NCBI GenBank assembly: GCA_905178155.1
Contig: CAJINV010000004.1
Location: 876,629-940,628 of the forward strand
DNA: 64,000 nt
Direction of reading: 5' to 3'
From: Amoebophrya sp. A120
Lineage: Eukaryota; Protista; Dinoflagellata
Both the position numbers and the translations under genes were made by a program. Positions 9,501 to 62,051 of this stretch are shown piece after piece (the stretch's first letter is position 1; each line of letters opens with the position of its first letter). The notes under the pieces are model-generated. The model had not been told where the DNA came from and ran no database searches. It was given only the letters and a program-made list of their open reading frames with translations.

Positions 9501-11465
9501 TGAATCGACGGAGCTGCACATCTTGACCTCACGATCCAAACGAGGCGCGGACGTGACGGACGATGGAGCCGCTGCGCAGCTAACATAGAAGCGCAAAACG
9601 TCAATGCCAGGCCCATTGTCGATTCCACGGCGGGAAAGCTCCCGCGTCGTGGCCCACACCATCTCCCCCAGCGCTGCCAAGCCTTGAGCTCGCATCTATT
9701 GCGCGCCCCTTTCTCGCATCTATTGTGCTTGGGGAACAAGACTCGATTGAGCTTGTTGCTACTGGCTTGGGCGAGCTGGGGGATGAATTTGTCATGCAAA
9801 ACTACCTCAAGCCGCCAGATGATCAAGCGGCTACGCATGACAAATCTCCGAAGGGCTAAACAGGGCGTAAATCTGTGCCAGCTCTGTGATGCGAAAGCAG
9901 CAAGCTTGCCTCTTCGGCTATAGCTGTTCTTGCGTTACAAATTCATGCAACAGCTGAGAGCGTAACGTTTGAGAACGCCATAAGTCACCACCTGCGGGTC
10001 TGAGAACGGGTCGTCTACCACTACCTCGTCGCGTCGAGCGTGGCCCGCTACTTCTTCCCGCCCTTTTTGTTTCTCGAACTTCTTGTTGCTCGACGCCGGT
10101 AGTTCGGTCACGTAGGTCACTTTTCCGGACTTCTGCAGGGTGTTGCTGGATAAAAAATTCACCTTCGAAGATAAAGAAGAACTGCTCCCCGGTCGTCCAA
10201 CTCCCAAAGTAGGTGTACCAGCACTACCACTCGGCGAGTTGTAGAACAAAACCTTGTCGACTGAAATCGCGATTTGCTGCGGTATCGGAACCCTCTCTTT
10301 GTTACTTGTTTTCACCAGCGGAGCAAGTGCGTCGACGTGCAGAGTCACATGCGGTTGGTGATACTGCTCAGGACCTCCTGTAAACGAGTTCTGGTCTTGT
10401 ACTTGCAGCTCAGCTGTACCACTGATCATGTCTCCGCTGCTGGCGGGCGCGAGGGACCTGGCTCTTTCGTTTTCCATGCCCTTCCTCTCGTCCTCCCCAA
10501 CATTGCTGTCTTCTTGCAACTGGATGATTTTGAAATCGGCGCTATCCGCAAAGGAAATGTCGTCCTCGTCCACGACGGTTCCGTAGCGGCCGACAAGATT
10601 CGCGGGCGCGGATGGGACATCCCGCACCCGGACCAATTGGCCCGCGGTCCACGCTGTGAAAGTACAGATGTTCGATGAAATTTAAGTACACAAAAACAGG
10701 AGGCTTCGGCTTGCTTTTATTGCAAAGATCTCGTCCCAAGAAGTAACAAGCATCGCTGTGCTACAAGCTCGCAACTTAACAGGTCGCATCTATGTTCCTG
10801 CTTGTAGGTAGCTGGCGATTAGTGTCTCAACCGATCGCCACCGGAGCTTGACCGATCGCCAACGGAGCAGGCACAAAAGGGAAATCTAAAAAACAAAATC
10901 TACAAAACATCAAAAATAACATCAAGTACGGATGACACAGGTGTGAAACCCCGACCCTCCGATGCTTCCGTTGCAGCCGTTCCCTTCAAAGCCAATCCGG
11001 CAGCACATCCCCCCGGTGCCGCACGCGGCGCAGGGACCGTTTTCGTGGTCGCATATCCTGTGCAAAAGTATCGCACTCGTGCTAATTGCCTTTATGCATT
11101 ACAAATTCAATTTTTCATGCTGAGAAAATTTGCAATGCAGTTTGTACTAGTTCGATGCTTTTGCAATGCATATCACAGTGGTTCCAACAATCGTCCTCGC
11201 CGGGCTGGAGAACTATGGCTTCACCGCCCTCACCGCCGCCGCCCATGTTCCCGAAAATATTGCAGGCGTCGCCCCGACTGCTCCGGGTTCTGGTGAGGGC
11301 GGAAACAGATGAAGCACGATAGAGTATCGTCACCGTGAGGACCATGGCGCTCAGCATTTGTGCCATTTGTAGTCCTCTCTTGCATTTTTTTGCTCGCAAG
11401 ATCATCTTCGGTAGCTGCGATGACCAGGTGCGGAAAACGCCACCTGCACCAGGCAAAAATGACAT
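3536..11465 (-). CDS. Type-B carboxylesterase/cholinesterase-family protein with N-terminal hydrophobic segment and Cys-rich domain; 6 exons, ~2026 aa
   Basis: Exons approx 11465-11173, 11048-10930, 10653-9983, 9004-8017, 7861-4294, 3977-3536. Motifs: VTFKGIAY, NCLRLDITMP, PVFVYFAGSCF, NWSLLDSRLALQWIQRHIHHFGGDKTRVTLFGQSSG (nucleophile), GYTRDDG, PHGWE, YWANFAIFGNPN, HWPRF...QCGLW. One GT-AG intron (10929-10654) and four introners. Confidence 0.85.
3983..4293. mobile_element. Introner (family I, TATGGAAGCGTCAGG termini)
   Basis: ~55-60 bp imperfect terminal IR; flanking 5-bp DR ctagc. Removing 316 nt joins the two esterase ORF frames. Confidence 0.9.
7867..8016. mobile_element. Introner family A (TATnnnnTGCAAAAGTATCG)
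   Basis: IR termini; DR acggg. Removing 155 nt gives GDPYHQKEKDADYANWSLLD. Confidence 0.92.
9010..9982. mobile_element. Introner family D (TATGG..CTCAAACGTTAC) carrying a nested 722-bp insertion
   Basis: ~50-bp IR; DR agtca. Removing 978 nt gives DPQVVTFKGIAY. Ends align with the 216-bp copy at 24703-24918. Confidence 0.9.
9061..9782 (-). ncRNA. Putative retroposed structured RNA / SINE-like insertion with 15-bp TSD
   Basis: Flanked by atgaatttgtcatgc at 9046-9060 and 9783-9797. At least 6 stem-loop domains with G-U pairs favouring the minus strand; no convincing ORF. Confidence 0.6.
11054..11172. mobile_element. Introner family A
   Basis: TATCCTGTGCAAAAG / CTTTTGCAATGCATA; DR tcgca/tcaca. 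Removal joins CWNHCD-HENGPC. Confidence 0.88.
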
Positions 11466-11497: not shown

Positions 11498-14400
11498 GAG
11501 AGAGAGAGAGATAACCTATATAGCAGATCAGATCAGATCAGAGTGGCGACGCGCACGCAACCACCGGCGGCAGGGACGACCATAAGGGTCAGGCGACTCC
11601 CCTTTTTTCGAGGGGTAGAAGAGGGCCAAACCCGCACGCAAAACTTCGGCGGGCCTAGATCGATCAAAGAAAGCTCTTGTGCGTGAACGCTACAAAAAGC
11701 CAAAATTAATCGAAATAGGTCTTGTAATGAATAGCCTTCAAAGACCCGACGTCCTTATGTTCTCATGTTATTTAGCTCCCGACGGTGATCGCAGCACCAG
11801 GAGCCCACACGAACTTGAAGAGTAGCGCGCGGCTAGCAGAGCAGAGAAGGCGCGAATCGCCGACCTTCCACAAGCGGAGGCCAAACTGTAAAATGTTTTT
11901 TCCAAGCAGAGCTGTAGCGAGCGCAATAGCGCTGAGGAACAGGTAAGCTAGACAGGACAATAGCAAGCTAGACAGGACTAGTAAACAACGCACGCCACAC
12001 AGTAGAACGAAGGCCTTGTATCCGCTCTCCCGCTATCGTGATGTCGTTTCCACCTCGCAACGCCTTTCTGTGGTCCGTCTGATCTACCCGCGGATTATGC
12101 GGAGGCGTTACCCTCGTCGAAGGCTTTCGTGGGTGAATCCGGGACAGTTTTGGTAGTCAGTTCGTCAAGGTCAAACCGGAAGGCGTAGGGATGGTTTACC
12201 TGTGGCCTTGTAGCACCGCTGCTGTCTTGAGCGTACCGCTCTTGGCGCGCACGTAAAAATCAAGACTTAGGCTTAAAGCGGGCTATTGTTTGAATGAACC
12301 TGAAAAGCTGAACAAAAGACGACAGGTCCCCGCAGGTGCTCTTCCACGCTACCTGCTGGCGAACCGAACTAAGGAAAACCCCTCCTCAGACTAGCCATCG
12401 TAAGCCGAGCGGATCCCCTGCGACGGCTCGACGCGGCTATTTTAGCGCGTAAGCCTTATGGGCTTAGACGTCTTGAGCTTTTTGTATACTTTCGTGGCAC
12501 TTTTATCTAAGCACTTCTATCTAAGCTCGTTGCTCTAGGAAGGGCTTAGCGGGTGAGCGACAGCTGCGTTTTATGTATACTGTTCTCCCCTGATGCCCTC
12601 CGCGCTTTGCGCTCGCGATCGAGCTCAGTAGGGACAGTCTTCGCGTTCTTCGTCCTTCTTAACTATGCACTGCAGCTCGGTGCCTGTAGCTAAATTTCAG
12701 CCTCAACACACGCCTCAACATCATCTCACTTTTCCCCCGATCTTCCTGGTGCTGCTCCTTTATCCCCACCTCCCACTTGGCGCACCCACGGTGCCTGACT
12801 TCCGGCTCCGGAGAGCCCAGGGGACGCACTGTGTGTGGTTCCGCTCCTCCCGCACTAACGCCCCACACTTGCCCTGCCGCCTGAGGTATCTCTTGCCACC
12901 ATGGCCAGACTGTGGGGGGGAGGGTGGGGATTTCTGCAGCGCCTCGTGGTGCTGCCCTGCGGTTTGGCTCGGTGGCAAAATTGCGCATGAGAAGACAGGC
13001 TCTGGGGGTGGTCGGGGCTGTGGTTTTTTCGTCTGGTGTTTGGCGCCGCGCCAATCAACAGAAGGGAAGAAGCTGCACGGTGCCGCTTTTTCTGCTGTTT
13101 CTCATGCTGCTGACGCTGTCGAGCTACAGATCGCCGATCCACTTCGCAATTTTTTCTAGGTCTCGCTCGTGCACTTTCGTCTGTGCTTTTTCGGGTTGCC
13201 ACTCCAAGACCTCCTGGAACTCCGCCGCGTTGAACTTCTCCTGCCCCGCCCGTATCGCGTTCGCTAGCCCCGTGGGAAGAATTCCCGCGCACTGTCTCGA
13301 GGCGGCTTCGTAGTAGTTGAGAATGTTCTTCACGTTTTTCGGCTCTTTTAAATAACTTGTGCGAGATTCGCACGACTTTTGTCGTGGCCAGCCTAGATGT
13401 TCTTTTCGCAATTGCACTAAGTGCACATCTTCGCACTCATACAAAACGTGGTCAGTGCTTGGGGTCACTTTTTTCGCGCAGATCGGACAACTCATGTAAC
13501 TGCTTGAAGGGTTCCTGGCGTCGTGTACAGTCTTTCCCATGCCAAGCTGCCCCTGGTTTCCCACCCCTAACCATACTAGACACATTGCGTTATCTATGAA
13601 GCGAGGGCGTTTTTCGTGACTTTGGTACTGCCCTAGCTCTTCGGACCTGCGTAGTAAGGCGGGGTGGGTGCTGCTGTATCCCCTTGGGCAGCTGTACACT
13701 ATCTGACTGACTATCTTCCGCAGAAGCTTTTCGGTGATGACTTTTTCAAAGGTTTTGCGTCCCTGTGACGAGTCTCCTACGTGCTTCAGGCCTCTTGTTG
13801 CCATTGCGTCTGCAAAGTCGTTAAAATAGCACCCTAAGTGCGACGGGCACCAGTTAAGGATGATCTCAACCCCCGGAGCCGATGCTTGTTCAAGACGTTC
13901 CAGGGCCTTCACGATGTCAATCGCCATGACGTTGGATTTGTCGCGCAGTGCTTCTATCGCCATCACCAGTCCGTTGGAATCGATGTAGAAGACGTGTCTT
14001 CTTATTGATTTTAGTATTGCTGCTGGTATTTTTTCTAGTATTTCGTTGATCTGATGCATCAAACCGAAGCACTCGCCGTCGAAAGAATCCGGGTTTATCT
14101 CTAGTTCGAAGTGGATCTTCGACTCCACTCCGCAGAAGCTGGCCACTACTGGCGCGGGCCGTGGCGCCGTCGGGAGAACCTTGCGCCAGGTTGCTCCTCC
14201 ACCGCTTCCTCTGTCGCCTTTCGCCCCTCCGTCGGTGAAGGTGGCCATCGTGTCGGCTCTAGTCAGGTGTCGCCGGGCTTCCTTCTCTATCAAACGCGAG
14301 ATCATTCGCCGCGTGTTGTTTTTCAGTTTGTGCTTCTTGATTTCGGCAGGGTCACGAAGACGGAATCTACTTGCAATTTTACTCATTGGGAAGACGTGGA

Positions 14401-15171
14401 TCTTGTTCACCCCCTTCCAGAACTGCCTGCCTACCTGCAGGCTAGCCGCGCTTGCCGCTATTGGTTGAAATTCTTGATTTAGTGCTATTCTGTTCATTCG
14501 ATTCGTCCATGCTTCGTCGCAATGCGCCCATAGCGGATTGTCTTTTAGTACTGTTGCTGCTACGGGGTCGCGGAGCGAGGAGATTCGCTCTGCGCTCGGG
14601 ATGTCGTCGGGGGGGAAGTCGTCGCCATCTCCTGCTGCGTTCTGCGAAGCCGCACCGGACGACTGCGAGGCAGCTACCGGCGGGGCCTGAACCTGTGAAG
14701 GGGGGCGGGGCTGAGTGCCTGCTGCACTCTCTACTTCTTTGCTTGGCCTGAAATCGGGCACCTCTTCCTCCTCCTGGTGGAAGGGCCAGATTCCGAGCGC
14801 GGCCCCCTTGTAGAAAGTCATTAATGCCTCTACTAGCAGACTGTCCACCGGGTGCGGCAGCCCTGTGGCATTGTACATGACCGAATTGCTGCAGTGCTTT
14901 GGAATGCCTAGCTTCTGTTTTATTTTTGTTGCAAACTCTTTCGCGATTTCCTTCTTTGCTGTCTGTGTGAAATACGGAAATGTCACTACGGAAACCGATG
15001 TCACTGCTGGGAATGCAAAAGATTCGATGAGCATCTTGATTTGTTTCTTGCTCCAACCTTTTTCGGTTTGTAAAAATGCAAACTCCTTTCCGACTTTTTT
15101 CAAAACCTGCTCTGCCTGGGAGTTGAAAGAGTACGTCCCGTCGTACGTTACTCCGAGACTCTTCCCAACCC
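11498..15171 (-). mobile_element. 5'-truncated non-LTR retrotransposon (RNase H-containing clade)
   Basis: RT C-terminal remnant KSLGVTYDGTYSF, RNase H, CCHC-type knuckle, ~1.6-kb 3' UTR, (TC)n tail. Candidate TSD cggaaaga at 11490-11497 and 15172-15179. Confidence 0.75.
13124..15170 (-). pseudogene. Truncated LINE ORF2: RT thumb remnant + RNase H + Zn knuckle
   Basis: TFTDGGAKG...GECFGL...FYIDSN...LNWCPSHLGCYFNDFADAMA (RNase H D-E-D-D) and CPIC-x7-HVLYEC. No RT core or endonuclease in the window. Confidence 0.8.
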
Positions 15172-16754
15172 CGGAAAGAAGTAGTGGCCGCTCGAGCGGT
15201 GCAGATGCTGAAGATTCATGTAGTTACATTGCAATTTCTTACGATTTCTTCCAATTCAATTCGATTTACAAATTACGTGAAGCAGTAATTTCTTCGTAGA
15301 AGTACTTGGTTGCCATGCGAAGGATTCTTTCGTTACCAATTGTTTTCGTCCAACTAGAGCCCGGTGGTCGAGACATTAGATATCATCGACTAATCCGTTT
15401 ACATACATGCTACCACCTAGCACGCAGAGTATAGGATGAGGATGATCGTCGGGTAGATCGGCAGCTGACCATCAATCAACAGCCTGCTCTGCAAATGCAA
15501 CGATAAAATTGAAAGTAAGCTGCTCGCCCCACGTCAGAGCAAAGCTCATTAGAACTACTACGCTCGAAAAGTTCTTCTACATAGACCGTGATCGAGTCCA
15601 AGTGAACAATGGGAGGAGCTCCTTCCACAGATACTAGACAAAAAAGCGCGGCGGACCAAAAAGAAAAGCCTTGGATCACCTTCGCGGAGTGGTCTTCACT
15701 TACTGCATAACGCTTCGCAGGGGCAGGCAAAACGCTGCTGCAGCTGCACTTGCTACAGAAACATATACGAGCGCTGGCTATGATCGTGTTTGACTGACTT
15801 GCAGCCACGAGCTGCAGTGTGATGTAAAGCGACACAAGTGACCAATTGCGATGAGGGATCTTCAGCTTCACGCCGATGTGGAACTAAAAGACGAGGACAA
15901 TCACAATTCGATAAAAATACACATTATTCGATAGTAGATTGATAGTTGGAGGTGGACAATATCAACAACCACGACACCGTCAACGTCAAGAAACGGAATG
16001 ATCCTGCTTCTGAAAGCGCTGTTGCACTGCCGACGATGAAAAGAATACTCGTGTTGTGACTGCTCCTCGTCGTCAGAACTACCGCTCCATTGCTTCATGC
16101 ACCATCCTGATTTTCACCATTGATTCGTCAGAATTCAAAAGACTCTGCAATGTCGTGTGACGACAGAAATTAGCGAACGATGCTGGTGTCCAGTCGATAT
16201 ATTTGCAAAAAAGTAGTGCTGTAGTCCTTCACCACTCGTAAAGCATCAGGTGTAATATTAGCAGTGGATAAAGAAGTTGTGCCATCTTCATTGATTATTT
16301 GGTAAGCAGGCACTTTGCTCATGATTCCAAGCCGCCTGAAAATCGGTCAAAATTATCCACCTGGACGACGAAGAGGATGATGCTCGTTGTGATTTCGTAC
16401 TGAAAGCACGCACTATCTTCTGCCGCCATGTAGTAGGCCTAACACTTGGACTAAGTTGAAGATCAGGAGCACCATCGGGCCTACTTACTACTTGCATCGA
16501 TCGTCCACCATTAATCATTTGACTCGCTTGTTGCATCCTCAGGCGTGTTCGAAAAGGCCCTCAGAGAAGTAGGCAAATGCAGCAAATCATGCTGACGATT
16601 CTTCAAAAATTGTATTTCTGAAAATAAGCTTTCATTTTCTAGGGGTACCTGCAGATCATAGAGCAGATACAGAACTCATAATTCTTGTGATACATCTGAT
16701 AATATAAATATATCATGATGTAGTTGTTCTTCTTCTTATCACCGTCAACACCGT

Positions 16755-21112: not shown

Positions 21113-23638
21113 AATTTGATACAACACCACCTGCGTTTATTCTAGTTGACCCGCGGCCCTGCTTTTTCTCCCCGCCTGGTCCTGTGTCGTTCACATCTAT
21201 TCTCACTGCTTCCTTGTGGCCCCCCGCCCCAAACACCACAGTGCCGCCCGGTGCATCATGTCGTCCTCCGCCTGAAGATCCACCAAATGCGTCCATGTGT
21301 GCCAGCTCTAGATTCACTTTACTACCACTGTTTATTCCCGCGTCTTCTTCCTCGTCCAAAGCTGAATCAAGATTGTAATTCTCTTCGTCCTCGTCCTGTA
21401 ATCCGAACTCCTCGTCATCCAGCACTTCTCTGTTCGGCACCGACTCAAACCCGAATTTGGACAAGTACTTCTCCTGCAAGTTTAAGCTCCGTTTCGTCAC
21501 CGGCGACTTTATCTTGCGCGAGGACGACCCCGGCGAAGATAGTACCCGCCCGATCGCGTTGCTCGGAGTCGGTATCTTGCTGCTTTCCTCGCGGCCGTAT
21601 CGATCGTAGAAGAGAACGCCAAACGCGCCGACGAGAAAGCCGACGATCTGCTTCCAATGCACAGGATATCAAGTGTAAAAGTGTCTGGGTCTGGAAGAAT
21701 GCGCGATTTGTCATGCTGCTTTTCCATGACCCATGAGGTCTGGAATGCCGGAGCTAGCATGACAGATTGTGCGAGAGCTTTCTAATGCCTATCCTGCATG
21801 AGAAACTACCTCCCGCCTTGGTCAAAATTGGGCGACTTTTGGTAATCATGCAACACAGATTTTTGCATGCTGCAGATTTACTAGCATGACAAGTTGCAAT
21901 CTTCCAGACCCAGACACTTTTACATTTGATACAGGATTGTTAAATACGATCGCGGACACCAAGATCGTGGTCGGCGTTTTCATATGCTCTGCAAAAGTAT
22001 CGTGCTCGTACGAATTGCTTTTTATACATTTTTACAAATCTTTTTGATATAGGCAAATCCGCATTACAGATTTGATTTGTAATGCTGTGCCAAATTTGTA
22101 TTGCAATTTATACTTACTAGTACGATACTTTTGCAATGCATATTTCATGTTCCCCACCACCATGGCCACGACCGCGCCCAGGTAGCCGATGGTGAGAAAC
22201 CCGATCAAATTGAACATGGCCGCCATGAACGCGCCGAGGCAAACCCAAAATTTCCCCATCGAGGTCAATGCGAAGTAAAATTCGTAGTAGGGCTCGAGTT
22301 GGTTTTCCTGGAAAAAGCTCCAAATGAAGAAGAGCAGCATGTTGACCGGGCTGCTGTAGTACAGCAGGGAAATGGAATCCAGTTTCAAATCCGCGCCACG
22401 AAGCAGCTCCGCTTGCAGCACGGCTTTCACCGCCCGGAACAGCGCGGCAGACAGGGAAATCAGCAGCCCGAACACGGCGAATTGGCTGCCCTCGTTGAAC
22501 GCGCAAATCGCGCCGCCGCCGCAGACCGGGATCAGGGCGAGGTAGGCACTGCGGTTGAACCTGTAGAAATTTCAGAGTCATGCTGTAGCTCTTTGGTGTG
22601 CCAGGCGGGCTGAAGCGAAAAAGTTTAAATTGCAACAAAGGAGGTTAGAAAACAAACGCAAATCTAAATCAATGTTTCTTCGTAGATGATGATGATGATC
22701 TGGAAGTGGTAGTAGATCCGATTTGCTTCGCAACATTTTGGGAACATCAACATATGTAGATGTACCTTTTCCCCTGAAACACCATGGCAGACAGCACGGT
22801 CCAGAGCGGCGTTGAGTTTTGCAGCATCGCGTGAAATATGGACTGCAAAAATGTCTGGGTCTGGAGGAGTGCAAGATTTCTCATGCACATTTTGCATGAC
22901 CACCCATGATGTCTGTGATGCTGATGCCTGCCCTAGCATCACAAATTTTTTGAGGGCTTTCTGATGCGTATCCTGCATGAAAAATGCCCTCTCCACCGTG
23001 TAGCACAAACACAAAGTCGAATCTTCTACTTGCTAGTCATGCAACACAGATTTTTTTAGAACCCGAAGCCAGCATCAGAAGTTGCATCCTTCCACCAGAC
23101 CCAGACATTTTTGCAATCCATATGAAACGACGGGTAGAGGTAGACGAGCGCCATGTTCGCCGCACCCAGACTCAGCGCTCCGGCGCAGGAGAAGGGTGTT
23201 ATCAAAAAGAGTTGCTGCCTCATGGTCAATATCGGCCGGGTTTCCCTGGGGACGATTTCGAACACGAAGAGACCAACGCTCGCCGCCACGTAACTCATCA
23301 GCATGTGCGTCCCGGTCAGCCACACCGGGTAACGAAAATGGTGCTCGACGTACAGCTATGAACTGCAAAAGTATCGCACTCGTATAAACGCATTACAAAA
23401 AATTTCCTCAGCATGAGAAATCAAATTTGTAATGCTGATCGGACTTCAGAAAAAAATTTGTGATGCAAGACTTGCATTTATACGAATACGATGCTTTTGT
23501 ACAGGATAACAGCCATTTCGTCACGTTCACCAAACCGACAGAAATCGCAAACCCGGTTATCACGAGGATGAAAATGTAGCACCGACCGATTTTACTCGTG
23601 CTGCTGGTACCGCTGTCAGAAGCAGAAGTGGCGGCCAT
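21111..23638 (-). CDS. Triose-phosphate/nucleotide-sugar transporter family (SLC35E-like), 6 exons, ~479 aa
   Basis: Spliced: KWLYVEHHFRYPVWLTGTHM...LGAANMALVYLYPSFHAMLQNSTPLWTV...FRAVKAVLQ...LLYYSSP...VVGNMKTPTTILVSAIVFNNPVHWKQIVGF. Four introners plus GT-AG intron 22765-22561. Confidence 0.88.
21667..21931. mobile_element. Introner family B (TAT..TG[CT]AAAA[AG]TGTCTGGGTCTGG)
   Basis: IR termini; DR cagga. Removing 270 nt is in frame. Confidence 0.92.
21983..22142. mobile_element. Introner family A
   Basis: DR tttca. Removing 165 nt gives GNMKTPTT. Confidence 0.92.
22837..23122. mobile_element. Introner family B
   Basis: DR tgaaa. Removing 291 nt gives PSFHAMLQ. Confidence 0.92.
23357..23508. 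mobile_element. Introner family A
   Basis: DR acagc. Removing 157 nt gives KWLYVEHHF. Confidence 0.92.
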
Positions 23639-24112: not shown

Positions 24113-26648
24113 TCAGTGAAACGCCCTCCGCGTTTTCTCCAGCAGAAACTCGTAGAACGCGAACATGAACGCCGCTTGACTGACCGTCTGCAGCAGCTTC
24201 GGGCCCAGCCCCTTGAAAAACCCCTTGAAGAAGCCCTCGAGCTCCAGGATTATGCAATACAAAATTTCCCGCACATGTACAGCATGCATCACAAATTTCG
24301 CCAATTTGTAGCGTAAAACTTGTCATGCTAAACTAGAATCGAAGCCAAGTTTTGTCATGCAGAGACCGGATCTGTACGTGTACGGGAAATTCACTGTGCA
24401 TAAGGATCTGCTGCATGCACGAGAAAAACGTGACGTCGTTCGAAACCAGGGTGTATCCTGTGCAAAAGTATCGTACTAGTATAAATCGCAATACAAATTA
24501 GCTCAGCATTAGCATTACAAATTTAAATTTGTAATGCTGATTTACCTTAACAACTAGATTTGTAATGCATAACTGCAATTAGTACGAGTACGATACTTTT
24601 GCAATGCATAGCGTGCGCATCCGGGTCTGCGTCACCTGCAGGGGGTAGGTGAGCACGGTGGCGATCGTTTTCGTGATGCTGCCAATGAGGAAGGCGGCGA
24701 AGTATGGGCGGGCTCTCAACTGTTACATTCTCAGCTGTTAAGTACATGATTTGTCATGCAAAAACGCATGACAAGTTCTTGACGCGCTAGATAGCATTAG
24801 AATCTCTCTGCGCCAAACCTGTAATGCAAAAGGCGCAATTTCCCCCCGTTCATTTTTCCCATTCCTGCATTACAAATTCATGTATACAGTTGCGAATGTA
24901 ACATTTGAGAACTCCATACGAAGGCGGAGATGGTTGCTGTAGATTTTATAATTTGCGGGGATGAAGAAGGACCCCCGCTGTTGAAGTAGTCGAGGTACCG
25001 TTTTTTCAACACGTCATACAACGCGTACTGCAACACCGGATTCGAAACCAGCCACAACGAAGTTGTCAACCCGTCCCAGAGGGACAGGAAACCGTTTTCC
25101 TCCCCCATACGGTACGCGACCCGAAACACGTTCTGCATTTTTGCCGTAGAAGGCATAATTAGCTGATGATGGTGTTGTGCATAATTGCTGGTTTGTTCCT
25201 GCTCCGCTGTTGAAACATTCTTGTCATTCTTTTTATTCGGACTCATGACGGGCGTTTTCGCGGTCACTAGGGGCGAAATCGGGCTGGTGCTCGCGACCGT
25301 TTGCTTCGACGTGGTGGCACTCGAAGCAGCGGAATCGTTCATCAACACCGAGGAATTCCTGGCTGCGAGCATGCAACGCATGTTTGCTTTCCAAAGCGGT
25401 TCGGTTAGGAGCATGTTCAAAACCCCGGCGACGAGCGAGGCGACGAAAGATTGGAACGCGGAAATTTCCTCTACTTTCTGTATTTCCGCTTTCGCAGCAG
25501 CGGCGGCGGCGGCAGCAGCGTCACCCGCAGCAAGTCCTAGGGCCACTTGTTGACTTTTGCCTGCTCTTCTACTCGCCTGATACGCCACGAGCAGCTTTGC
25601 CACCACCTTCTTGGTCCACTGGAACAGGTAGAAATACACGAACTGCGACGTCCCGATCGTGGTCAAGACGGGTACTAGACCACTGTAGAATCCCTTCACA
25701 CCGGCGAAAATCTGCTCGAGTTGCTTCTTGCGCTGTTCTCGCTTATTTTCATCAGCTTTTTGCTCCTTTCCACCGCTCATCTTGACAGCAGTGGTCCCCC
25801 CGGACGGGGAGCCAAACAGGAGCTGCATGCCGACGCCCGCTTTCTCCTGCTCGGCCTGCTTTGCTCTCCTCCCGAGCTCGTAAATGACCCGAATGCGCTT
25901 ATCAAATGTAAAAATGTCTGGGTCTGGAAGAGTGCATGTTTGTCATGCTTGTCTGGCATGACTCTTAAATCTGTCATGCACGTTGCCCAAGAGCCGCGCT
26001 TTTCTGTCATGCGGAGACGCAATTTGTCATGCAGAATAGGCAACACCTACAAGCTCAGAAATTTGTCATGCTGACCCAGCACTTGTGGCCTCCTCATGCT
26101 ACGCCACTCAGCATCACAACTTTCCAGACCCAGACATTTTTACATTTGATAGCGCTGGAAAACGGTCAACGTTTTCTCCTCCTTCCGCGACTTGTCCATC
26201 TGGCTGTGGGTTCGCAGCACGTCCAGCGGGTAGAGGAGCAAGCCCGTGCATCAAAAGGAAAAACGCCCCCTCCCCATACACATACTCAAAGGGCGACTTG
26301 TGTAGCATGATTTGTGATCACAAGTCAGACTGTCATGCTAGAAGGCAAGAGATGTAGACACTGCAGTGCTGGCTGGCGTGGGAAAGCATTGCGTCTTCAG
26401 CATGACAGGAAGCAACTGGAAGCGGAAAACAGCATGACAAATAATTGCCTGCAAACGAGGGGGCGGCGGCGTCTCTTGGCCTTCTAGCAATACAAGTCGA
26501 TTTGTGATCACAAATCAGCATCAGAAGTTTTCTTTTCGATATGGGGAGGGGGGATTTTTCCTTACGATACCGCGAGGACGGAGGACAGCGCGCCCACGCT
26601 CGCATGGTGGAGCAGAGAGGAACTTGGTTGCTGACTCGGGGAGGACAT
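24113..26648 (-). CDS. Mitochondrial carrier family protein, PMP34/SLC25A17-like (peroxisomal adenine-nucleotide/CoA carrier), 6 exons, ~470 aa
   Basis: Spliced: LAGLLLYPLDVLRT...GFYSGL...LLTEPLW...LWDGL..SLWLVSNPVLQYALY...TKTIATVLTYPLQVTQTRMR...GFFKGLGPKLLQTVSQAAFMFAFYE. All five introns are introners. Confidence 0.88.
24251..24402. mobile_element. Introner family E (TATGCA...AAATTTCC.GTACA.GTACA)
   Basis: DR aggat. Removing 157 nt gives QQILELEG. Confidence 0.9.
24454..24610. mobile_element. Introner family A
   Basis: DR gggtg/gcgtg. Removing 162 nt is in frame. Confidence 0.9.
24703..24918. mobile_element. Introner family D
   Basis: DR cgaag. Removing 221 nt gives SAFAAFLIG. Confidence 0.9.
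25900..26151. mobile_element. Introner family B
   Basis: Perfect ~30-bp IR; DR gcgct. Removing 257 nt gives VFQRIRV. Confidence 0.92.
26249..26569. mobile_element. Introner family C (.ATC..AAGGAAAAA..CCCCCTCCCCATA)
   Basis: DR ccgtg/ccgcg. Removing 326 nt gives VLAGLLLYP. Confidence 0.85.
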
Positions 26649-51553: not shown

Positions 51554-54500
51554 CTAGGACAGTCCATTGTGTCTCAACAGCGCATCCACGGTTGGTTCCC
51601 GACCGCGAAATTCCTTGAACACCTCCAACGGCGCGACGCCTCCGCCGAGCCCCAGCACCGTATCTGCAAATTTTCGTCCAGTTTTTTCGATCTCCTTCTC
51701 GTTCTGCAGCCCAACTTCCTCGAACGCGGCGAAGCAGTCCGCGGACAAGACTTCCGCCCACTTGTAGCTGAAGTAGCCCGCTGCGTAGCCGCCCGCGAAG
51801 ATGTGCGCGAAGGAGCAGAGAAAGCGGTCGTAGGGGAGTAGTGGTAGGACGTCAAATTTGTCCGAGACCTTCTTGTCCACTTCCCACATGGTGTATGAGA
51901 GTGCACAAAAAGTTCATCTTCGCCTCCCCTTCTTCATTTGGCGTGCGAAACGCGATGTCTTTTCCTACGTTTCAAAAATTTTGCATGAGAGAAGTGAGAC
52001 CCACAAACAACGCCACGCTATGTTCGTTGTAGACTAAGATTTCTCACGCAGAGCATACACATTTCTATCCTAGCTCTCTCTGGTGTTGCTAGTTTTCCAT
52101 TCCAAAGGAGGGAGGCAAGGGGGTGTGGTTGTGCACTCTCATATGGTCTGTTCTGCCTTCTTCACCGGGTCGGACTTTTCTGCAGAGGAACCATCTCCAG
52201 CAGCAGTGTAGTACCTGGAGTGCAACTCTAAATCGACGAAGGAAAAGTGGAGCTGTCGCAGCATCATGCTTGCCGCCCGGTAGTTCTTGGCCTTCACCAG
52301 CTTCTGAAACAGCGCGTCCGGCAGTTTTTCCCCCGTTTCGTAGTGAATCGCCATGGAGTCCACGGTTGGCTTGTCGTAGCACCTATGGGGTCGCCAAAGT
52401 TGTATTTGCCTCAAGCTGTAAAAAAATTTCCGCGCGCCTTTTTTTGTATTTAATGCCCATCATGCTGCACGCGTATAGCCTCCCGCTATGTTGCGCACCT
52501 AATGAACTCGCTAGCTTATTCGCAGCGCTTCTCAGTGGCTAAAGACGGAGCTATCCGGCGCTGCTGCTCCACAGACTTGCCTTGGAGCGCCCGTGCAACC
52601 TGGAGGTGCTGCAGCAGGTTCTCTTGCAGTCCAGCCGCTAGACAATGGGTCTCAATCTGTGCAAGTCGGTCGGAGCCGCTGGCGCAAATGGAACCGGCCG
52701 CGGCTGCGCTCCCCCTTGTTTCTAATGTCGCGCAGCTGTGCGCGCGTGCACCGGCAGGCGCGCGCGCTTTTTGCCTTTGCGGCTTTTTCTTGAAAATGCG
52801 AAAAGCCCGAGAGCCTTTCGGGAGGGGTTCCGAGAGGGGTTCCGGGACCCCTTTTGGGGAGGGGTAGCACCATCGTGATTCGAAGAAAAAGCGGTAGGGT
52901 TTTTTTTTAGGGTTCCGGGCACCCCTGCGGCCCCCCCTTTTTGGAAGGGCTCCGGATAGGCCTTCGCGGCCAATATATGTGCGCGGCACCCGCTAGAGAC
53001 GACGACGCCAGGGCCTGAGTAGACATATCGGGGGGCGCTTGCAGCCTCACACCCTGACCCAGGCCATAGCGGCAACTAGCTTCACGGAGAGAGCAATCCG
53101 GAAAACAAAGCAAAACATTGCGGGCGCCCGGCGTTTTCTATGTGAAAACATCAGCCAACAAAGAACCCTCAACGCCCCGCCCTCCTCCACGTCAGTACTC
53201 ACCTACCTACTAGAGCTCTGCTGCTGACAAGCTAGCTAAAACAAACCGCGTTCAGGTCAGCCCTTCACTTGCGTGCACAGGTTTACTAGCTTTGCGACGC
53301 GAAAAAATGCGCGCAGAATTTTTTTGACGGTCTGAGGCAAATCGCCATGGAGTCCACGGTTGGTTTGTCGTAGCACCAATTTTCCATGAACTGCGACGGC
53401 TGCTCTACCGCGTCCCATTCAACGTTCCGGATTCCCGCCGCCATCCCCTCGGATTCCTTGGTCAGCATGTGCTGTAGCGCGTGGCCGAATTCGTGGAACA
53501 AGGTTTCGACCTCCCGGAAGTTCATCAACGACGGGATTTTTTTCTCGCCGCTCGTCACCGGCGGCGTTTATGGATTGCAAAAGTTGTACTATCCTCGCAT
53601 ACAGCGGCAACTGCGTTGCGAATTTTTCCAAGGACGACAATGAAGCTTTTTCAACATTTTGAAAATGCGCATTCAGGTCGAGTAAAAGCAGATCTGTCAA
53701 CACGCGGCGTGGCAGTTACTAGTACCAGTATGAGCACGAAACTTTTGCAATTATGCATACTGTCTGGTTGCACACCATGTGCGCGACGGGCAGTCGGATC
53801 TTCTTCTCTCCTTGCACCAGCTCCGGGTTCGCGGTCCTCCCGCACACCTCGTCCATCCACGCGCCGCCCTTTTTCGTTTCAGGCCGGGAAAACGGGTCGA
53901 GGTAGAAGTAGGAAACCACTTCATTGTCCTTGACTATCTCAAACACCATCACGTCCTCGTTCCAGAGGGAGACTCCGAGCTTTGTTTTTTCCTCGGCCGA
54001 CGCGATTTCCCGGATGGAAATCCCGAATAACTTGTTCGCCAGGTTCCACAGCCCCGATAGGACCTTTGGTAAGGGGATATCAACGGCAAAAGTTCTTGTA
54101 TCGCACGAGGGCGCAGTAGTAGCAATACTGTATCTAATAGATATGACTACAAACCTGCACCTGGTGATGTCTACTACAGGAAAAAATAAACAACTCAGCA
54201 ATTATGACAAGTTATTCCGCTTGTCGACATCATGCTAAAGAGCAAATGCAAATTTGTATATGCCACCAGTACTACCGCGAGGACACTTTCGCTTTTGCAA
54301 CGCGTAGGAAAAGTAGGGCTTCAGCTCCTCTTCGTTGAACTCGTATTTCATCTCTTTCATTCGTTCCGCGTAGTAGGGCACGTCCCACTGCATCAGCTTC
54401 TCGTCCTTCGGGAACGGCAGTTTTTCGTACTCCGTCTTCGCGAATTTCTCCAAGTCTTCCAGTTCCTTCACCGTATGCAATGCAAAAGCATCGTACTAGT

Positions 54501-57231
54501 ATAAATTGCATTACAGATTAGCCCAGCGTTACAAATTAAATTTGTAATGCTGATTTACCTTGAGAAAGAGATTTGTAATGCATAAATGCAATTACTTACT
54601 ACGGGTACGATACTTTTGCACAGGATACACCGCCGTCGCGTACGATTTGGACCGCAAATCCTCGATCAACTTGTTCGCGGACTCAAAGGTCGCCATCTTT
54701 TTTGCCATGGACACCTCGGCGTAATTCTTGTACCCAAGCAGCTCCGCGTTCTCCTGGCGCAGTTTCAGGATTTCCTCCATCAGCGGCGTGTTGTCCTTGA
54801 TTTTCCCCTCCTCGTCCTTGTCACATTGCACAACTCCCCCTCGTTCTCATTTCTCATGCAAAATACCAAATCCACGCTTTGCCTCCTGTCACTATTACTT
54901 ATGCATGACAAGTTCTGGTAGCCCGAATAGCACTACAATCCAGTGGAAATCTGTCATGCAAAACCGGCACCCTTGCTGATGCTTGTATTGCCGTTCATGC
55001 TATACAAATGAGGGGGAGGGGGAGTTGTGCACTGTCATAGTCCTTCAGATCCGTGCTGAACTCGCTCGCCCGCTTCAGATGCGCCTGGTACATCTTCTTC
55101 CGCAGCTCGCGGTCGGTGGAGTGCTGCATCACCGGCAAATACGACGGCATGTCCAGGGTGAACAGCCAGGGACCGTCTTCAGCGGTGGCAGACTCTTCCT
55201 TGCCTGGAGTTCGTTGTTGGGGATTTTTCTTTTCCGGTGTTTATTCTTGTTGATGCTGATCTTGAGTTGTTAACATGATCTTCGTCTCAAGTGATGAGGA
55301 TGCGGGAAAGAGTACATCAAAGGAGGTCTAGGTAGACGACATGATCAGCACCAACTTTTGCAGGTGCTGGCGCAACACAAGTTTGGATTTTTTTAATCTT
55401 TTTTTGCTACGACGAAAAACCAAAAAGCTCCTCTACAATTGATTACCTTTCGTTTTTGCTTGCTGAGCTCCGAGTTGCAGCGCTGAGGTTGGTAAGCCCG
55501 CGACTTCTTCCTGATATTCGTATTTTCATTTTGAAGAGAGCATTATTTAAGGTTTTACAGTATCCTTTCTGTCCCGTGCGGCGTGTCACCAGGAGCCGCA
55601 CGTCATCGTATTCATATTATTATTATTTTTAGAGCGTAAGAAATGATTCTCATTCTTCGCCAGATTGATGCATGAAAACACATGACAAGAGACGTAGAAA
55701 AATCGACATGCACATCCGCATGCTCATCCAAATTACATTTTATCGCATACAACTCAACGAAGTGGATATCAACATACCCTTTTCGTGAGTTTGACCGAGA
55801 ATGCCTTGGTTGCATCCTGCAAGTTGTTCGTGAATTTCGTTTTCAGTTCGCCCATCCTCTTTGTGTTCGCGTTATACTTGACTTTTTTCTCCCCGGTCAG
55901 CCCAACGCCCGACAATTTCGCCGCCAGCAGCTCGTGCTCCACGATCCGGGCCTGGCTTTTTGAGAAGGTTATCCTGAGTAAAAGCGTCCCCATAACAGAG
56001 TTAAGCTGGGAAATCTGCTAGACAAATCAACCAGATATGGTTGCTTCGCATGACAAGTTTGTCCTGGTAGTGTGATCCTGTTTAGCTAGTTCCGAAGCAT
56101 CACAGATCTAGCATATCATGCCGATAGTAGCATCACAAATTCCACAACACGACTAGAAAATGGCTCTCATGAGGCTCCGCATGAGAAACTTTTTTGGCAT
56201 GCAAATTTGCATGACAACTCTGGGGTGGGGACGTTTTTACTTAGGATAAAGGTTTTCTCCTTCTTATCCTGTTCCGACAGAAACTGCCAGGCCTTGTACA
56301 GTTCCTCGCTCTGCCCCATCCGGAGCCCGAATTCGATTACTTTCGGCTGCATCTTCTCCACGACCGCGCGCAGCGCGTCGGAGTCCTTCACCGATTTCAA
56401 GTGTTTCACCACGCCCCACGCCCGGGAGAGCTTGTCATCGAACTGCTCCACTTCTAGCGCAACCTCGGCGTAGGTGAGGTTGGGCGTGGGCTTCGCAAGC
56501 TCGTCCTTGATTTTCGTTTCCAGCTGCTCCAACGACTTCAAAGCGTGCTGCAGGTGCTCTTCGATGCCGGGTTCCACATGGTCCGGCGTCACCTCGCCAA
56601 ACGGCGGGAAGAGCTGGGACCCCGGGAAAAGCAGCGGGTTTTTGTGTGTCGCCCCGTCGCCCGCGGGTGGTAAAACCGGCGACATGGTCGTGCTCAGACT
56701 GCGGGAGGAGGAGGAGCTAGTACGGGTGGACTGAAGGTTGTTCTTCGCGCTAGTGGAAGCTGAGGAAGAACTACTGGATGTAGTAGCTCCGCTGCTTGCG
56801 CTTTGTCTATTCCCCGTTAGAATCCCCGTAGGACTAGTTGTACTGGAGTTACTAGTACCACAACCTGCGAAGAGAAAACAGATGCCGAGTAGAAAAGCGG
56901 AGAGACAGAAATAGCGCTTGACCGCACTGTAGTTTAAGCACTGCGCGGTTATGGATTTCAGAAAACTACCAAAGCTAGATGGATTGTTATTAAAAGAAGT
57001 GCTATCGCTGTTAAAGAGCAATTGGTGGAGCCTCGCGACCCTGGCCGCGCTACTTCTATGGCCGCCGAAGTCCGAGGTGGAACTTCGGTCGTCCGGGTCG
57101 TCGACCGGGGTGCCGAGGTCGATGTCCTCTAAAATAGTAGCTTGCTGGTCGTCTACAACTTCCGCTCGGTTTTTGCCCAGGATTCTCTGGTGGTAGTTAC
57201 TACTGCTTGATGACCCTAAAAAAGACGCCAT
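51554..57231 (-). CDS. prlC: Oligopeptidase A (peptidase M3A), 10 exons, ~939 aa, with N-terminal hydrophobic/Ser-rich extension
   Basis: [47 protein letters not shown] (HEXXH), [42 protein letters not shown]. Six introners and three GT-AG introns; exon lengths sum to 2820 nt. Confidence 0.93.
51894..52143. mobile_element. Introner family G (TATGA.AGTGCACAA)
   Basis: 15-bp perfect IR; DR tggtg/tggtc. Removing 255 nt gives EQTMWEVD. Confidence 0.88.
52346..53377. repeat. 38-bp exon duplication (52346-52383 / 53340-53377) bracketing a 994-nt intron
   Basis: aatcgccatggagtccacggttgg[c/t]ttgtcgtagcacc occurs twice, each copy encoding [12 protein letters not shown]. Confidence 0.92.
52404..53342. 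mobile_element. TIR element (ATTTGCCTCA... termini) inside the duplication-bounded intron
   Basis: ~40-bp imperfect TIR; GC-rich interior with ggggttccg repeats; no TSD seen. Confidence 0.7.
53569..53759. mobile_element. Eroded family-A introner
   Basis: tatggattgcaaaagt / acttttgcaattatgcata; DR decayed. Removing 196 nt gives CNQTPPV. Confidence 0.8.
54078..54306. mobile_element. Eroded family-A-like introner
   Basis: tatcaacggcaaaagt / cttttgcaacgcgta; flanks gggga/ggaaa. Removing 234 nt gives PYF[S/P]LPKVL. Confidence 0.78.
54474..54627. mobile_element. Introner family A
   Basis: DR caccg. Removing 159 nt gives TAVKELEDL. Confidence 0.92.
54819..55039. mobile_element. Introner family G (TGT left end)
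   Basis: tgcacaactccccctc IR; DR gtcct. Removing 226 nt gives [14 protein letters not shown]. Confidence 0.88.
55970..56248. mobile_element. Introner family F (TATCCT.AGTAAAA.CGTCCCC)
   Basis: DR aaggt. Removing 284 nt gives [12 protein letters not shown]. Confidence 0.9.
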
Positions 57232-59184: not shown

Positions 59185-62051
59185 TCATCTTCGCATCTCT
59201 GCCATTTCCCGCTGTTCTCGCATTGTTCGTGCGTGCAAAACCTTCGCGTCGGAGAGCAAGGAACAAGACCCAGCACCAGCTGCCGTAGTTGTACGAGGGC
59301 CACTGCCTCTATTTTTACTGTTCCCCGACAGAAGCGACGTCGAAGTAGAGGAGGTGGGTGCCAGTTGTGATTCATGACTATGCAGCAGCGTGTACAAGTT
59401 GCCTGAGGTAACCGCGAAGCTGTGTAAAACCTCGGCATCCTTCGCTTCCTGCCGCTGTTTCCGCTTCTGCTTCTCCTCTTCCTCTTTTTGCCTCCGCAAC
59501 CCGATGCGTGCTTTAATCGCGGCGAGATCGACGGTGGTGCCGAAATTGTTGATCATCTGGATAAAGTTGTAGCCCGGGATGCTCGGGGACAGAAGGGCTT
59601 TTGAGGCAGTAGTTCCATTTGTTGCGCCTGTTTCGGCGTCGACGTGGTCCTTGATCTGATTTATCAGCTCCTCTGAGGTGGAGCTCCTGTGAAGATCTCC
59701 AACAACTTCTACCGTCTCACAGCACGATGCAGCCGAAAAGTCTATTCTGCGCGCAGTCGTGAAGGCTCCTGCTTCATCTTCCGCAGGTGCTGTGTTGTGC
59801 CGGCTGGTGACGAGAAATGAGGAGTTCGTCTCTGATTGTTCTGGGACGAGAACTTGAGCTTCATCTTTCATCTGCCCACCCGACGTCGTGAAGGATTCGG
59901 AAGACGAATCAGAACGAGACTCTTCGTTTTTCGTCATTTTGATTTTCCACTTTCGGTAACTTCGTCGAATTTCCACGAGGTTGTACTGGTCTGCGAAATC
60001 GTCATTTGGTTCGCGGCGAAGTAAATGACGCTCGTGCATTTCCTCGGGCGCTCGCTTCGTTCCAACAAAACAAGAAGAAGAAGAAGAGGAACCACTCCTC
60101 ATCTGGCGCTTTATTTCTGCAGCTGCGTGGTCATCCACTTGTCGCGAAACCAGCTCGCTCCGTGGGTTGTACGCAGAAAGAACTACAGGCGTGCGCGACG
60201 AGGACAACATCATCCCATTCCCACCGCCACCATTCACAACTTCGTACACGCTGAGTTCGTGTTTCCTATGCTCGCTGGCCCGCGTGTTGTCCAAAACGCT
60301 CCTATGCATTGCAAGAAAGTATCGCACTCGTATAAATGCATTACAAATTTCCTCAGCATGAAAAACAAAATTTGTAATGCTGATTTGCCTTAGCAAGATG
60401 ATTTGTAATGCATAACTGCAATTATACGAGTACGATACTTTTGCACAGGATAGCTCCATGCGTAGTACAAAACGAAGAAGCAGTATCACGAGAAAGAAGT
60501 GTTACAGTTACACATTTGTTGGAGTTTCTGCATCACAAATTTTCTCTGTGTGGCAGAGAAAACTTGTAATGCGAAAATCATAAGGGAAAACAGCAAGGAA
60601 ACGAGGCTCCGAAGCATTTCCTGCATGAGGAAGGTTGTCTCAGTTGCCAGTTTTGCATGACAATGTGTAACTGTAACACTTTTTTCTTGTGATAAGCAGC
60701 CCGCGAGGGAGACCAGCACCCCGCGCATCTCCGACTTCGCCTCCGCGTCTTCCGTATCAAATGCAAAAATGTCTGGGTCTGGAAGATTGCAACTTGTCAT
60801 GCTGTCTTTAGATTCCACAAAAGTCTGTATTGCCTGACCGGCAAAAGGAGTCCAGTTTGTGCTACTCGGAGAGGGCATTTCTCATGCGGAATACGCACCA
60901 GAAAGCCCTCTCAAAATCTGTGATGCTAGGCCATGCATTACAGCCATAATGCGTCATGCAAATTATGCATGACAAACCTGGCACTCTTCCAGACCCAGAC
61001 ACTTTTGCAATTCATATTCCGCTGCGATAGCCGCTTCGCACGCTCGTCTCTGCTTCTCCTCAATGTTCTGGCTGCGGAGCAGGTCCTCCACGGACATGGT
61101 GGATCTGGCACCACTACTAGCATTTTTCCTCTCGGCCTGCTGTGCTGTGTTCGATGAATCATGATCCTGGTCCTGAAATGAACTAGTCCCACTTGTTCTT
61201 CCCCAAGAACTTCTACGCGACCTCGTGGCTCTTTGCTCGTTCTCCGAGCTCAGCATCTGCTTCTGGAATCTCTCTTCCTCGTCGAGCAGCTTCAACGCTT
61301 CCTGGTACTGTTTTTTCATCTCCACAAATGCTGCGGTCGTGCTTTGCTCGCTTCCGTTTTTGGTAGGATTTTTTGCGTGGTATTGTACCAGATCCGGATG
61401 CAGCTTTTTTGACTTCGCGAAGTACGCCTTTTTCAGCAGCCTGCGGTCGACTTTGTCCACGCCGAAACCCGTTTTCAGTAAAAACGCCAGTCGCTTCCGA
61501 CGCACCATAGCGGGCATGCTGTCGGTGCTGCCGGGCGAATTGTGGTGCTGCTGGTCATGCCGTGCTGCTGAAGCTGTAGTGAAGAAAACCCGCCGGAGGT
61601 CTGGTGCTCCTCGGTGTACTAGTCCTGTCCTTCCCCTGCTAGTTGTATCAGGTTCGTGCCGAAACACCTGGTGCTGAAGACCCGTACTGCTACTAGAGGA
61701 GGACGACGAGCATGTGCTTCTTGGAATTGCCCGCGGTAGAGAGGACGAGAGGCAACTGTAGCCCTGGAGGTGCTGTGCTGGAGCTGCCAAGAGCCCTGGT
61801 CGGAGCTGCACTACCTTCAGGCGGGTGGCAAAGGGGTTTCGGTGAATGTGCTGGGCAGTCGAGGTGCTGGGCGCGCTACGAAATAGTACACCAACCGCGA
61901 GGTGCTCGGACATGTGTGACTGGCAGTTGCTGGGTGTCCGTTTGCTCTGGAATACTTCCGATTCAGAGCAATTGCGATAATGTTGCCCTTTGACAGAGCT
62001 GTCAACCAGAGAGGTTGAGCTGCTCCGTCTGCGGCGCAAGATCGCCATCAT
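59185..62051 (-). CDS. J-domain (DnaJ-type) membrane protein, 4 exons, ~742 aa
   Basis: LKKAYFAKSKKLHPD...AFVEMKKQYQEAL. Spliced TM segment GVLVSLAGCFFVLYYAWSVL; Arg/Ser-rich N-terminus; three introners. Confidence 0.78.
60303..60452. mobile_element. Introner family A
   Basis: DR gctcc. Removing 155 nt is in frame. Confidence 0.92.
60484..60694. mobile_element. Introner family H (TATCAC.AGAAA.AAGTGTTACAGTTACACATT)
   Basis: 33-bp IR; DR agcag. Removing 216 nt is in frame. Confidence 0.92.
60755..61016. mobile_element. Introner family B
   Basis: DR ttccg. Removing 267 nt gives AAEDAEAKS. Confidence 0.92.

What the first reader, a model, noticed from the sequence alone, without database searches (positions are those of the whole stretch)
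52346..53377. Intron bounded by a 38-bp exon duplication around a TIR element and an orphan introner end
Seen: [12 protein letters not shown] is encoded twice, 994 nt apart, with one synonymous difference. The upstream copy begins with a GT (TG|GTGCTA) and the downstream copy is preceded by CCATAG, so a GT-AG intron 53376-52383 restores the protein exactly. Between the copies lie a ~940-bp element with ~40-bp TIRs and, at 52384-52404, tatggggtcgccaaagttgta, which resembles an introner terminus (compare 53569). Inference: recent intron gain through insertion-associated duplication or aberrant transposition.
Basis: partly seen in the sequence, partly recalled or inferred. Interest (0 to 1): 0.72.

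Follow-up and report, generated by a model that had tools for sequence, protein, structure and literature searches.

The report
Introner end overwritten by exon copy
In a marine parasite, one intron-making transposon copy has lost the outer tip of one end, which now carries a short copy of the next exon, likely pasted in by a DNA-repair slip after insertion, and the gene is still spliced correctly.

Summary
The host gene is an Amoebophrya sp. A120 M3 oligopeptidase. There is one element, not two. The 'orphan end' is the outer 20 bp of the element's own ~61-bp terminal repeat: another copy starts with it and runs on collinearly, and other copies carry its mirror beyond 53342. Local introners make 5-bp target duplications. 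Here that duplication (GGTGC) alone supplies GT and AG, so the extra 33 bp did not create the intron. Relative to a normal insertion, 18 bp of the upstream repeat are replaced by 28 bp matching the downstream exon, between 7-bp and 3-bp microhomologies. RNA-type contigs skip 994 nt and keep AAG; DNA-type contigs bridge both junctions and lack the skip. Most likely a template switch after insertion (0.6); one-ended faulty integration is the rival (0.3). The true cut is ambiguous over 14 positions. A one-off variant of a published introner class; the scan's index held no look-alike.

The parts
52384..53342 (.). Non-autonomous introner (TIR element) copy, 959 bp present of about 979; multicopy family
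   Evidence: depth 155-1530 inside vs 28-45 in flanks; loose ends at 52384 and 53342; L001, 91% over 577 nt
52384..52444 (.).
53302..53342 (.). Truncated terminal inverted repeat: inner 41 bp only
   Evidence: 83% complementary; other copies run 20 nt further
53343..53370 (-). 28-bp patch matching the downstream exon (27 of 28), in place of 18 bp of the terminal repeat; intronic at least from 53364 on
   Evidence: local score 55 against the exon, 9 against the repeat; RNA joint
53371..53377 (-). Upstream 5-bp target duplication GGTGC (53377-53373) plus TA: 7-bp microhomology; holds the GT at 53376
53340..53342 (-). 3-bp microhomology ATT shared by the exon copy and the element
52346..52383 (-). 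Downstream 38-bp copy, starting with target duplication GGTGC (52383-52379); exonic at least from 52370 on, carries AAG
52383..53376 (-). 994-nt intron, GT-AG placement; one of 14 equivalent placements (start 53377..53364); 53373-52380 is the placement that matches the gene's other introners
53377..53564 (-). Upstream exon of the M3 oligopeptidase A gene (HEFGH motif)
52143..52382 (-). Downstream exon of the same gene

Best explanation
A single multicopy introner sits in an exon of the oligopeptidase gene and is spliced out as a 994-nt intron; the outer 18 bp of its upstream end are replaced by 28 bp matching the next exon, likely through a repair or replication template switch after a normal insertion. 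Shown: element ends, 5-bp duplication, patch, microhomologies, splicing, AAG retention. Inferred: (1) a normal insertion gave GGTGC-TAT...ATA-GGTGC, already removable as a 984-nt intron; (2) a break or stalled fork at the upstream end freed a 3' end reading ...GGTGCTA; (3) it annealed to the same 7 bp at the downstream junction (same molecule, sister chromatid, empty allele or cDNA) and copied about 30 nt of exon; (4) it let go and rejoined the element at ATT; (5) the lesion was tolerated because the patch lies inside the intron; (6) the intronic copy later drifted AAG to AAA.
For: Normal 5-bp duplications: exact in 11 of 12 repeat-flanked TAT..ATA elements of the window, 4 of 5 letters in the twelfth (the 12 were picked from 23 candidates). 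The 38 bp resolve as 7 + 28 + 3, and both ends of the patch lie at sequence shared with the element. The TA beyond the 5-bp duplication is not a target preference (0 of 24 such flanks; about 1 in 16 by chance), and a switch needs it while the rival does not. The residual repeats are predicted to pair and bring the two junctions together. Deletions with insertions templated from flanking sequence are described after P-element excision (PMC2895639, passages); template switches at microhomology and hairpins are described in PMC2621351 (passages). Splicing: joint 52370-53365 in X6 (depth 68) and X9 (one contig, depth 3.2), absent from X1 and X2.
Against: One locus, and no allele with the undamaged insertion or the empty site was seen. 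The TA argument is a single 1-in-16 coincidence. Divergence cannot order the events: 1 mismatch in 33 nt fits a simultaneous origin too (P 0.19-0.56). The template lies 1 kb away in linear DNA, farther than the flanking templates in the cited fly work. No repair enzyme was looked for. No genome was available, so the frequency of such patches is unknown.
Confidence: 0.6

Rival explanations
1. One-ended faulty integration: the downstream end was joined normally, while the other end was trimmed by about 20 bp and joined by repair at ATT 38 bp along the target, so that fill-in made a 38-bp target duplication in one event.
For: It gives the same final sequence. One end is perfect, the damaged joint has a 3-bp microhomology, and timing is compatible. 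It needs only one event. Such one-ended integrations are known for retroviral integrases (recalled; searches gave no passage that shows it).
Against: The TA after the duplication must be chance (0 of 24 comparable flanks). No other long duplication among the 12 window elements.
Confidence: 0.3
2. Unequal recombination or gene conversion between an element-bearing allele and an empty allele (or cDNA) that carried AAA, so that the mismatch is an allele difference rather than later drift.
For: It explains the AAA/AAG difference without a new mutation. Recycling of processed cDNAs is cited for dinoflagellates (PMC7789003, passage).
Against: No AAA-bearing spliced or empty form is listed in the 8 runs laid (2 of them with no reads, 1 with 2 reads; tables partly cut). 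One mismatch is what neutral drift predicts. It is largely a sub-case of the best explanation.
Confidence: 0.07
3. One reading: a TIR element beside the leftover end of an unrelated introner, with the 38-bp duplication creating the intron.
For: The 20-bp end looks like other introner ends.
Against: The end is continuous with the element in L001 and mirrored at the far end of other copies. GT and AG come from the 5-bp duplication.
Confidence: 0.02
4. Assembly or haplotype artefact.
For: The element is multicopy, and no listed DNA-type contig spans the whole stretch.
Against: Single-copy-depth contigs cross both junctions in X1 and X2 (one sample, possibly the window's source). A 1041-nt contig of another sample (X3) covers 52354-53394 with no difference.
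Confidence: 0.01

Closest known systems
Introner elements of Amoebophrya sp. A120 (PMC7789003; read abstract, sections 11, 12, 16, 23, passages, supplement legends)
   Same: TAT-starting inverted repeats, short direct repeat, repeated family, no transposase, removed from mRNA. The paper reports this layout in 15% of A120 canonical introns too.
   Different: The upstream repeat lacks its outer part and starts 34 nt inside the GT-AG intron instead of 1-5 nt from the cut. The duplication is 38 bp; the paper gives 3-5 nt and surveyed 3-8 nt (figures not visible to me).
Intron gain by transposon insertion into a proto-splice site (PMC3443670, passages)
   Same: The target duplication supplies donor and acceptor, here G|GT from GGTGC with the A of AG from the element.
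   Different: The target is not AGGT, and there is a secondary patch.
Intron gain by tandem genomic duplication (PMC3443670 passages; PMC4974935 listing only)
   Same: Duplicated exon sequence lies inside the intron.
   Different: Only 37 of 994 intron nt match the exon; the rest is a mobile element, and the splice sites need only 5 bp of the duplication.
Templated insertions of alternative end joining and microhomology-mediated template switching (PMC2895639, PMC2621351, passages)
   Same: A deletion at a transposon end filled with a short copy of nearby sequence, with microhomology at the joints.
   Different: Natural allele in an alveolate; template is the far flank of the element; enzymes untested.
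Microhomology-mediated intron loss (PMC3698931, abstract)
   Same: A switch between the two GGTGCTA copies is the step that would delete the intron precisely.
   Different: Here the intron was kept; that paper rests on statistics of completed losses in worms and flies.

Membership tests
Amoebophrya A120 introner element | Host is an Amoebophrya A120-type genome | tested here: met
   Exon product 100% identical to a protein named Amoebophrya sp. A120; A25 orthologue 86%
Amoebophrya A120 introner element | Repeated family | tested here: met
   raised depth, divergent contigs, other flanks; L001
Amoebophrya A120 introner element | Family has TAT-starting inverted repeats at both ends | tested here: met
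   loose ends at 53342
Amoebophrya A120 introner element | This copy has inverted repeats within 1-5 nt of both splice sites | tested here: not met
   Upstream outer part replaced; the residual arm begins at 53342, 22-35 nt from any allowed 5' cut. Filed as a damaged derivative of the family, not an intact member
Amoebophrya A120 introner element | Repeat motif TAT, 7 nt, then AAA | tested here: inconclusive
   Here 9 nt lie between TAT and AAA; L001 has AAC there
Amoebophrya A120 introner element | 3-5 nt direct repeat at the borders | tested here: met
   5-bp GGTGC abuts the intact end and opens the 38-bp duplication; 5 bp is the window's norm
Amoebophrya A120 introner element | Removed from mRNA | tested here: met
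   joint in X6, X9; X3 and X11 by depth arithmetic
Amoebophrya A120 introner element | No internal transposase | tested here: met
   4 internal frames scanned; one hit below cut-off (PF02371, E 0.058)
Canonical GT-AG intron | A GT..AG placement exists | tested here: met
   1 of 14 placements
Canonical GT-AG intron | The cut is made at GT and AG | not testable with these tools
   All 14 placements give one mRNA; needs lariats or splicing intermediates
Intron gain by tandem genomic duplication | Intron body is duplicated exon sequence | tested here: not met
   37 of 994 nt match the exon
Templated-insertion repair scar | Deletion plus insert copied from nearby DNA, microhomology at the joints | tested here: met
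   18 bp out, 28 bp in, 7 and 3 bp shared
Templated-insertion repair scar | Arose after the insertion, from an intact allele | tested here: inconclusive
   No intact allele seen; divergence uninformative
Templated-insertion repair scar | Polymerase theta or another microhomology pathway present and responsible | not tested
   No genome held

The most novel reading that the evidence does not exclude
The locus is a frozen, aborted precise intron loss: a switch between the two target-site copies began to delete the introner and reversed after 28 nt. It also doubles as a natural mutant showing that Amoebophrya, in which no U1 snRNA was found, can cut at the original site without the outer stem of the introner hairpin, either because a GT-AG route rescues damaged introners or because the intact 3' end fixes the cut.
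Probability: 0.3. Interest if true: 0.62.

Novelty: new variant of a known kind. Interest (0 to 1): 0.38.

Why it matters
The element class is published and abundant, so the intron gain itself is ordinary for this organism. The damaged end is the useful part. How A120 picks splice sites without a detected U1 is open, and the hairpin is the proposed guide (PMC7789003). The gene's four other RNA-supported introns all fit one geometry: a cut 1 nt before TAT and 4 nt after ATA. This copy has lost the upstream half of that geometry and is still spliced in frame. Collecting such scars genome-wide would test hairpin guidance against GT-AG recognition, and could show directly how introners decay or are lost through their own target duplications.

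Tried and rejected
No whole genome was held, so there is no copy count or genome-wide survey. Raw RNA runs X10 and X12 gave 0 reads and X11 gave 2, so no splice rates. Raised intron retention was considered and not accepted. X3 shows an unspliced contig at 11% of exon depth while three other introns show none. In X6, however, the target intron's piece is at 5% and a control intron's at 8%; contig depth is a poor measure, and assemblers may prune short low-depth paths (recalled). A cut at the residual hairpin base (53343-52400) would shift the frame and is not among the listed joints (19 joints not shown; decay could hide it). A cut at the ATT joint (53342-52349) would keep AAA and is excluded by the joint. 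The patch is not a mutated repeat. The viral contig scan found 0 matches. The metagenome scan found 1, and L001 ends inside the element, so its far end is unseen. Rfam gave 0 matches. The weak PF02371 hit was taken as chance. Paper searches listed nothing on an introner with an exon-patched end; most hits were seen as listings only, subscription papers are not covered, and supplement figures S19-S25 of PMC7789003 were seen as legends only and may bear on long repeats.

Full report
Setting. The window holds a minus-strand peptidase M3 gene: 4 of 4 exon pieces scanned hit PF01432. The exon upstream of the finding is 100% identical to a 939-aa protein named Amoebophrya sp. A120 and 86% to the A25 orthologue. 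That protein has one copy of [12 protein letters not shown], in register with five homologues. The window is rich in elements bounded by TAT..ATA inverted repeats, the introner type described for A120 (PMC7789003, section 11).

The observation. The repeat is 38 bp, 994 nt apart, with one mismatch. Removing 53376-52383 gives GT..AG and an open frame. Inverted arms of 41 bp lie at 52404-52444 and 53302-53342.

Is it real and spliced? Runs X1 and X2 (one sample; kind not on record, DNA-like because introns are covered evenly; possibly the window's own source) have single-copy-depth contigs across both junctions and no 994-nt joint. X3, another sample, has one contig over 52354-53394 with no difference. 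X6 (guessed RNA; it skips all five introns of the stretch) and X9 (seawater metatranscriptome, another study; one contig, depth 3.2) join 52370 to 53365. The mRNA therefore keeps AAG, and the upstream copy is intronic at least from the Lys codon on. By arithmetic on the depth tables, X3 holds an unlisted spliced contig at about 265 against 34 unspliced, and the single read pair in X11 splits at the same place. These two are my inferences, not listed joints. X10 and X12 gave no reads.

One element, not two. Depth inside 52384-53342 is several to tens of times that of the flanks; the tool warns this is no copy number. Other copies diverge from the window before 52384, and behind 53342 they continue for 20 nt with the mirror of 52384-52403 (three contigs in X2, one in X6). 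L001 starts at the same TAT in a different flank and aligns for 577 nt at 91%. The 'orphan' is thus the element's intact end, and what is missing is the tip of the other end.

What a normal insertion would look like. Of 23 candidate elements I took the 12 with a repeat one base off the register or abutting it; 11 have an exact 5-bp duplication abutting TAT and ATA, and one matches at 4 of 5. Ten candidates without a repeat (several are mis-paired or inner ends) and one with a repeat at another spacing were left out. Here GGTGC abuts the intact end and also opens the upstream copy. A normal insertion would read G|GTGC TAT...ATA G|GTGC, already a GT-AG intron of 984 nt. The long duplication therefore did not create the splice sites. 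Against that expected state, 18 bp of the upstream repeat are gone and 28 bp matching the downstream exon stand in their place, between GGTGCTA and ATT, both shared by exon and element.

Mechanism. A template switch after insertion uses both microhomologies. The paired repeats are predicted to bring the two junctions together. Similar scars are described after P-element excision (PMC2895639) and for microhomology switching (PMC2621351). A one-ended faulty integration gives the same sequence in one step but treats the TA as chance; none of 24 comparable flanks has it. Divergence does not decide. I put 0.6 on the switch, 0.3 on faulty integration and 0.07 on conversion from an AAA allele. The copy does not look very young: 9% from L001, 45 differences in about 800 letters from six majority contigs (8 of 45 pieces were listed), and single-copy depth over a 384-nt interior stretch.

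Where is the cut? Fourteen placements give the same mRNA. The other four RNA-supported introns of the gene share one offset, 1 nt before TAT (TAC in one decayed element) and 4 nt after ATA; it is the only possible cut for 53760-53565 (GT..CG), and none of the four has a GT-AG placement. For the present intron that offset gives 53373-52380 (CT..TG), while GT-AG gives 53376-52383. Either way the cut is at the original insertion site, not at the base of the remaining hairpin, where it would shift the frame. Evidence for poorer splicing is mixed (11% unspliced in X3; 5% against 8% for a control in X6) and is not claimed.

Known and new. The class is published. The paper's direct repeats are 3-5 nt, surveyed to 8 nt by the supplement legends. 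My eight paper searches listed no exon-patched introner end, within the limits given under Tried and rejected. The scan's own index held nothing on this genome or sequence, and one note on a non-canonical hairpin intron in another dinoflagellate.

Verdict. Real, spliced and not an artefact. It is a single damaged introner with an exon-templated patch, a new variant of a known kind. Interest 0.38; higher only if such scars prove common enough to test splice-site choice or microhomology-mediated intron loss (PMC3698931, abstract).

Noticed in passing
window 51888-52142, 53565-53760, 54072-54305, 54469-54627: All four other RNA-supported introns of the gene fit one offset (cut 1 nt before TAT, 4 nt after ATA); none has a GT-AG placement, and 53760-53565 is uniquely GT..CG. 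This may be a general splice rule for A120 introners.
   Followed up: partly
window 54474-54627 (also 7867, 11054, 21983, 23357, 24454, 60303, 63659): A 150-160 bp introner family with eight copies in the window and summed depth near 100,000 in run X1, so very abundant in the genome.
   Followed up: no
window 21667-21931, 22837-23122, 25900-26151, 60755-61016: A second introner family of 250-290 bp, all four with exact 5-bp duplications.
   Followed up: partly
window 51894-52143 and about 54820-55039: Two introns of the same gene share terminal sequence (25-nt repeat at 80%), suggesting two insertions of one family into one gene.
   Followed up: no
window 13124-15223 (-): A 699-aa open frame with a weak RNase H match below cut-off (E 0.04); possibly the 3' part of a retroelement.
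   Followed up: partly
window 9010-9982: Another introner of about 970 bp with TATGGG.. ends and an intact 5-bp duplication; a size-matched control for splicing efficiency.
   Followed up: no
L001 1301-1876: A family copy in a metagenome contig, 91% identical, in a different and apparently non-coding flank; the contig ends inside the element.
   Followed up: partly
window 52354-53394 in run X3: A complete unspliced contig at about 11% of exon depth; may be retention or transcription of the element.
   Followed up: partly
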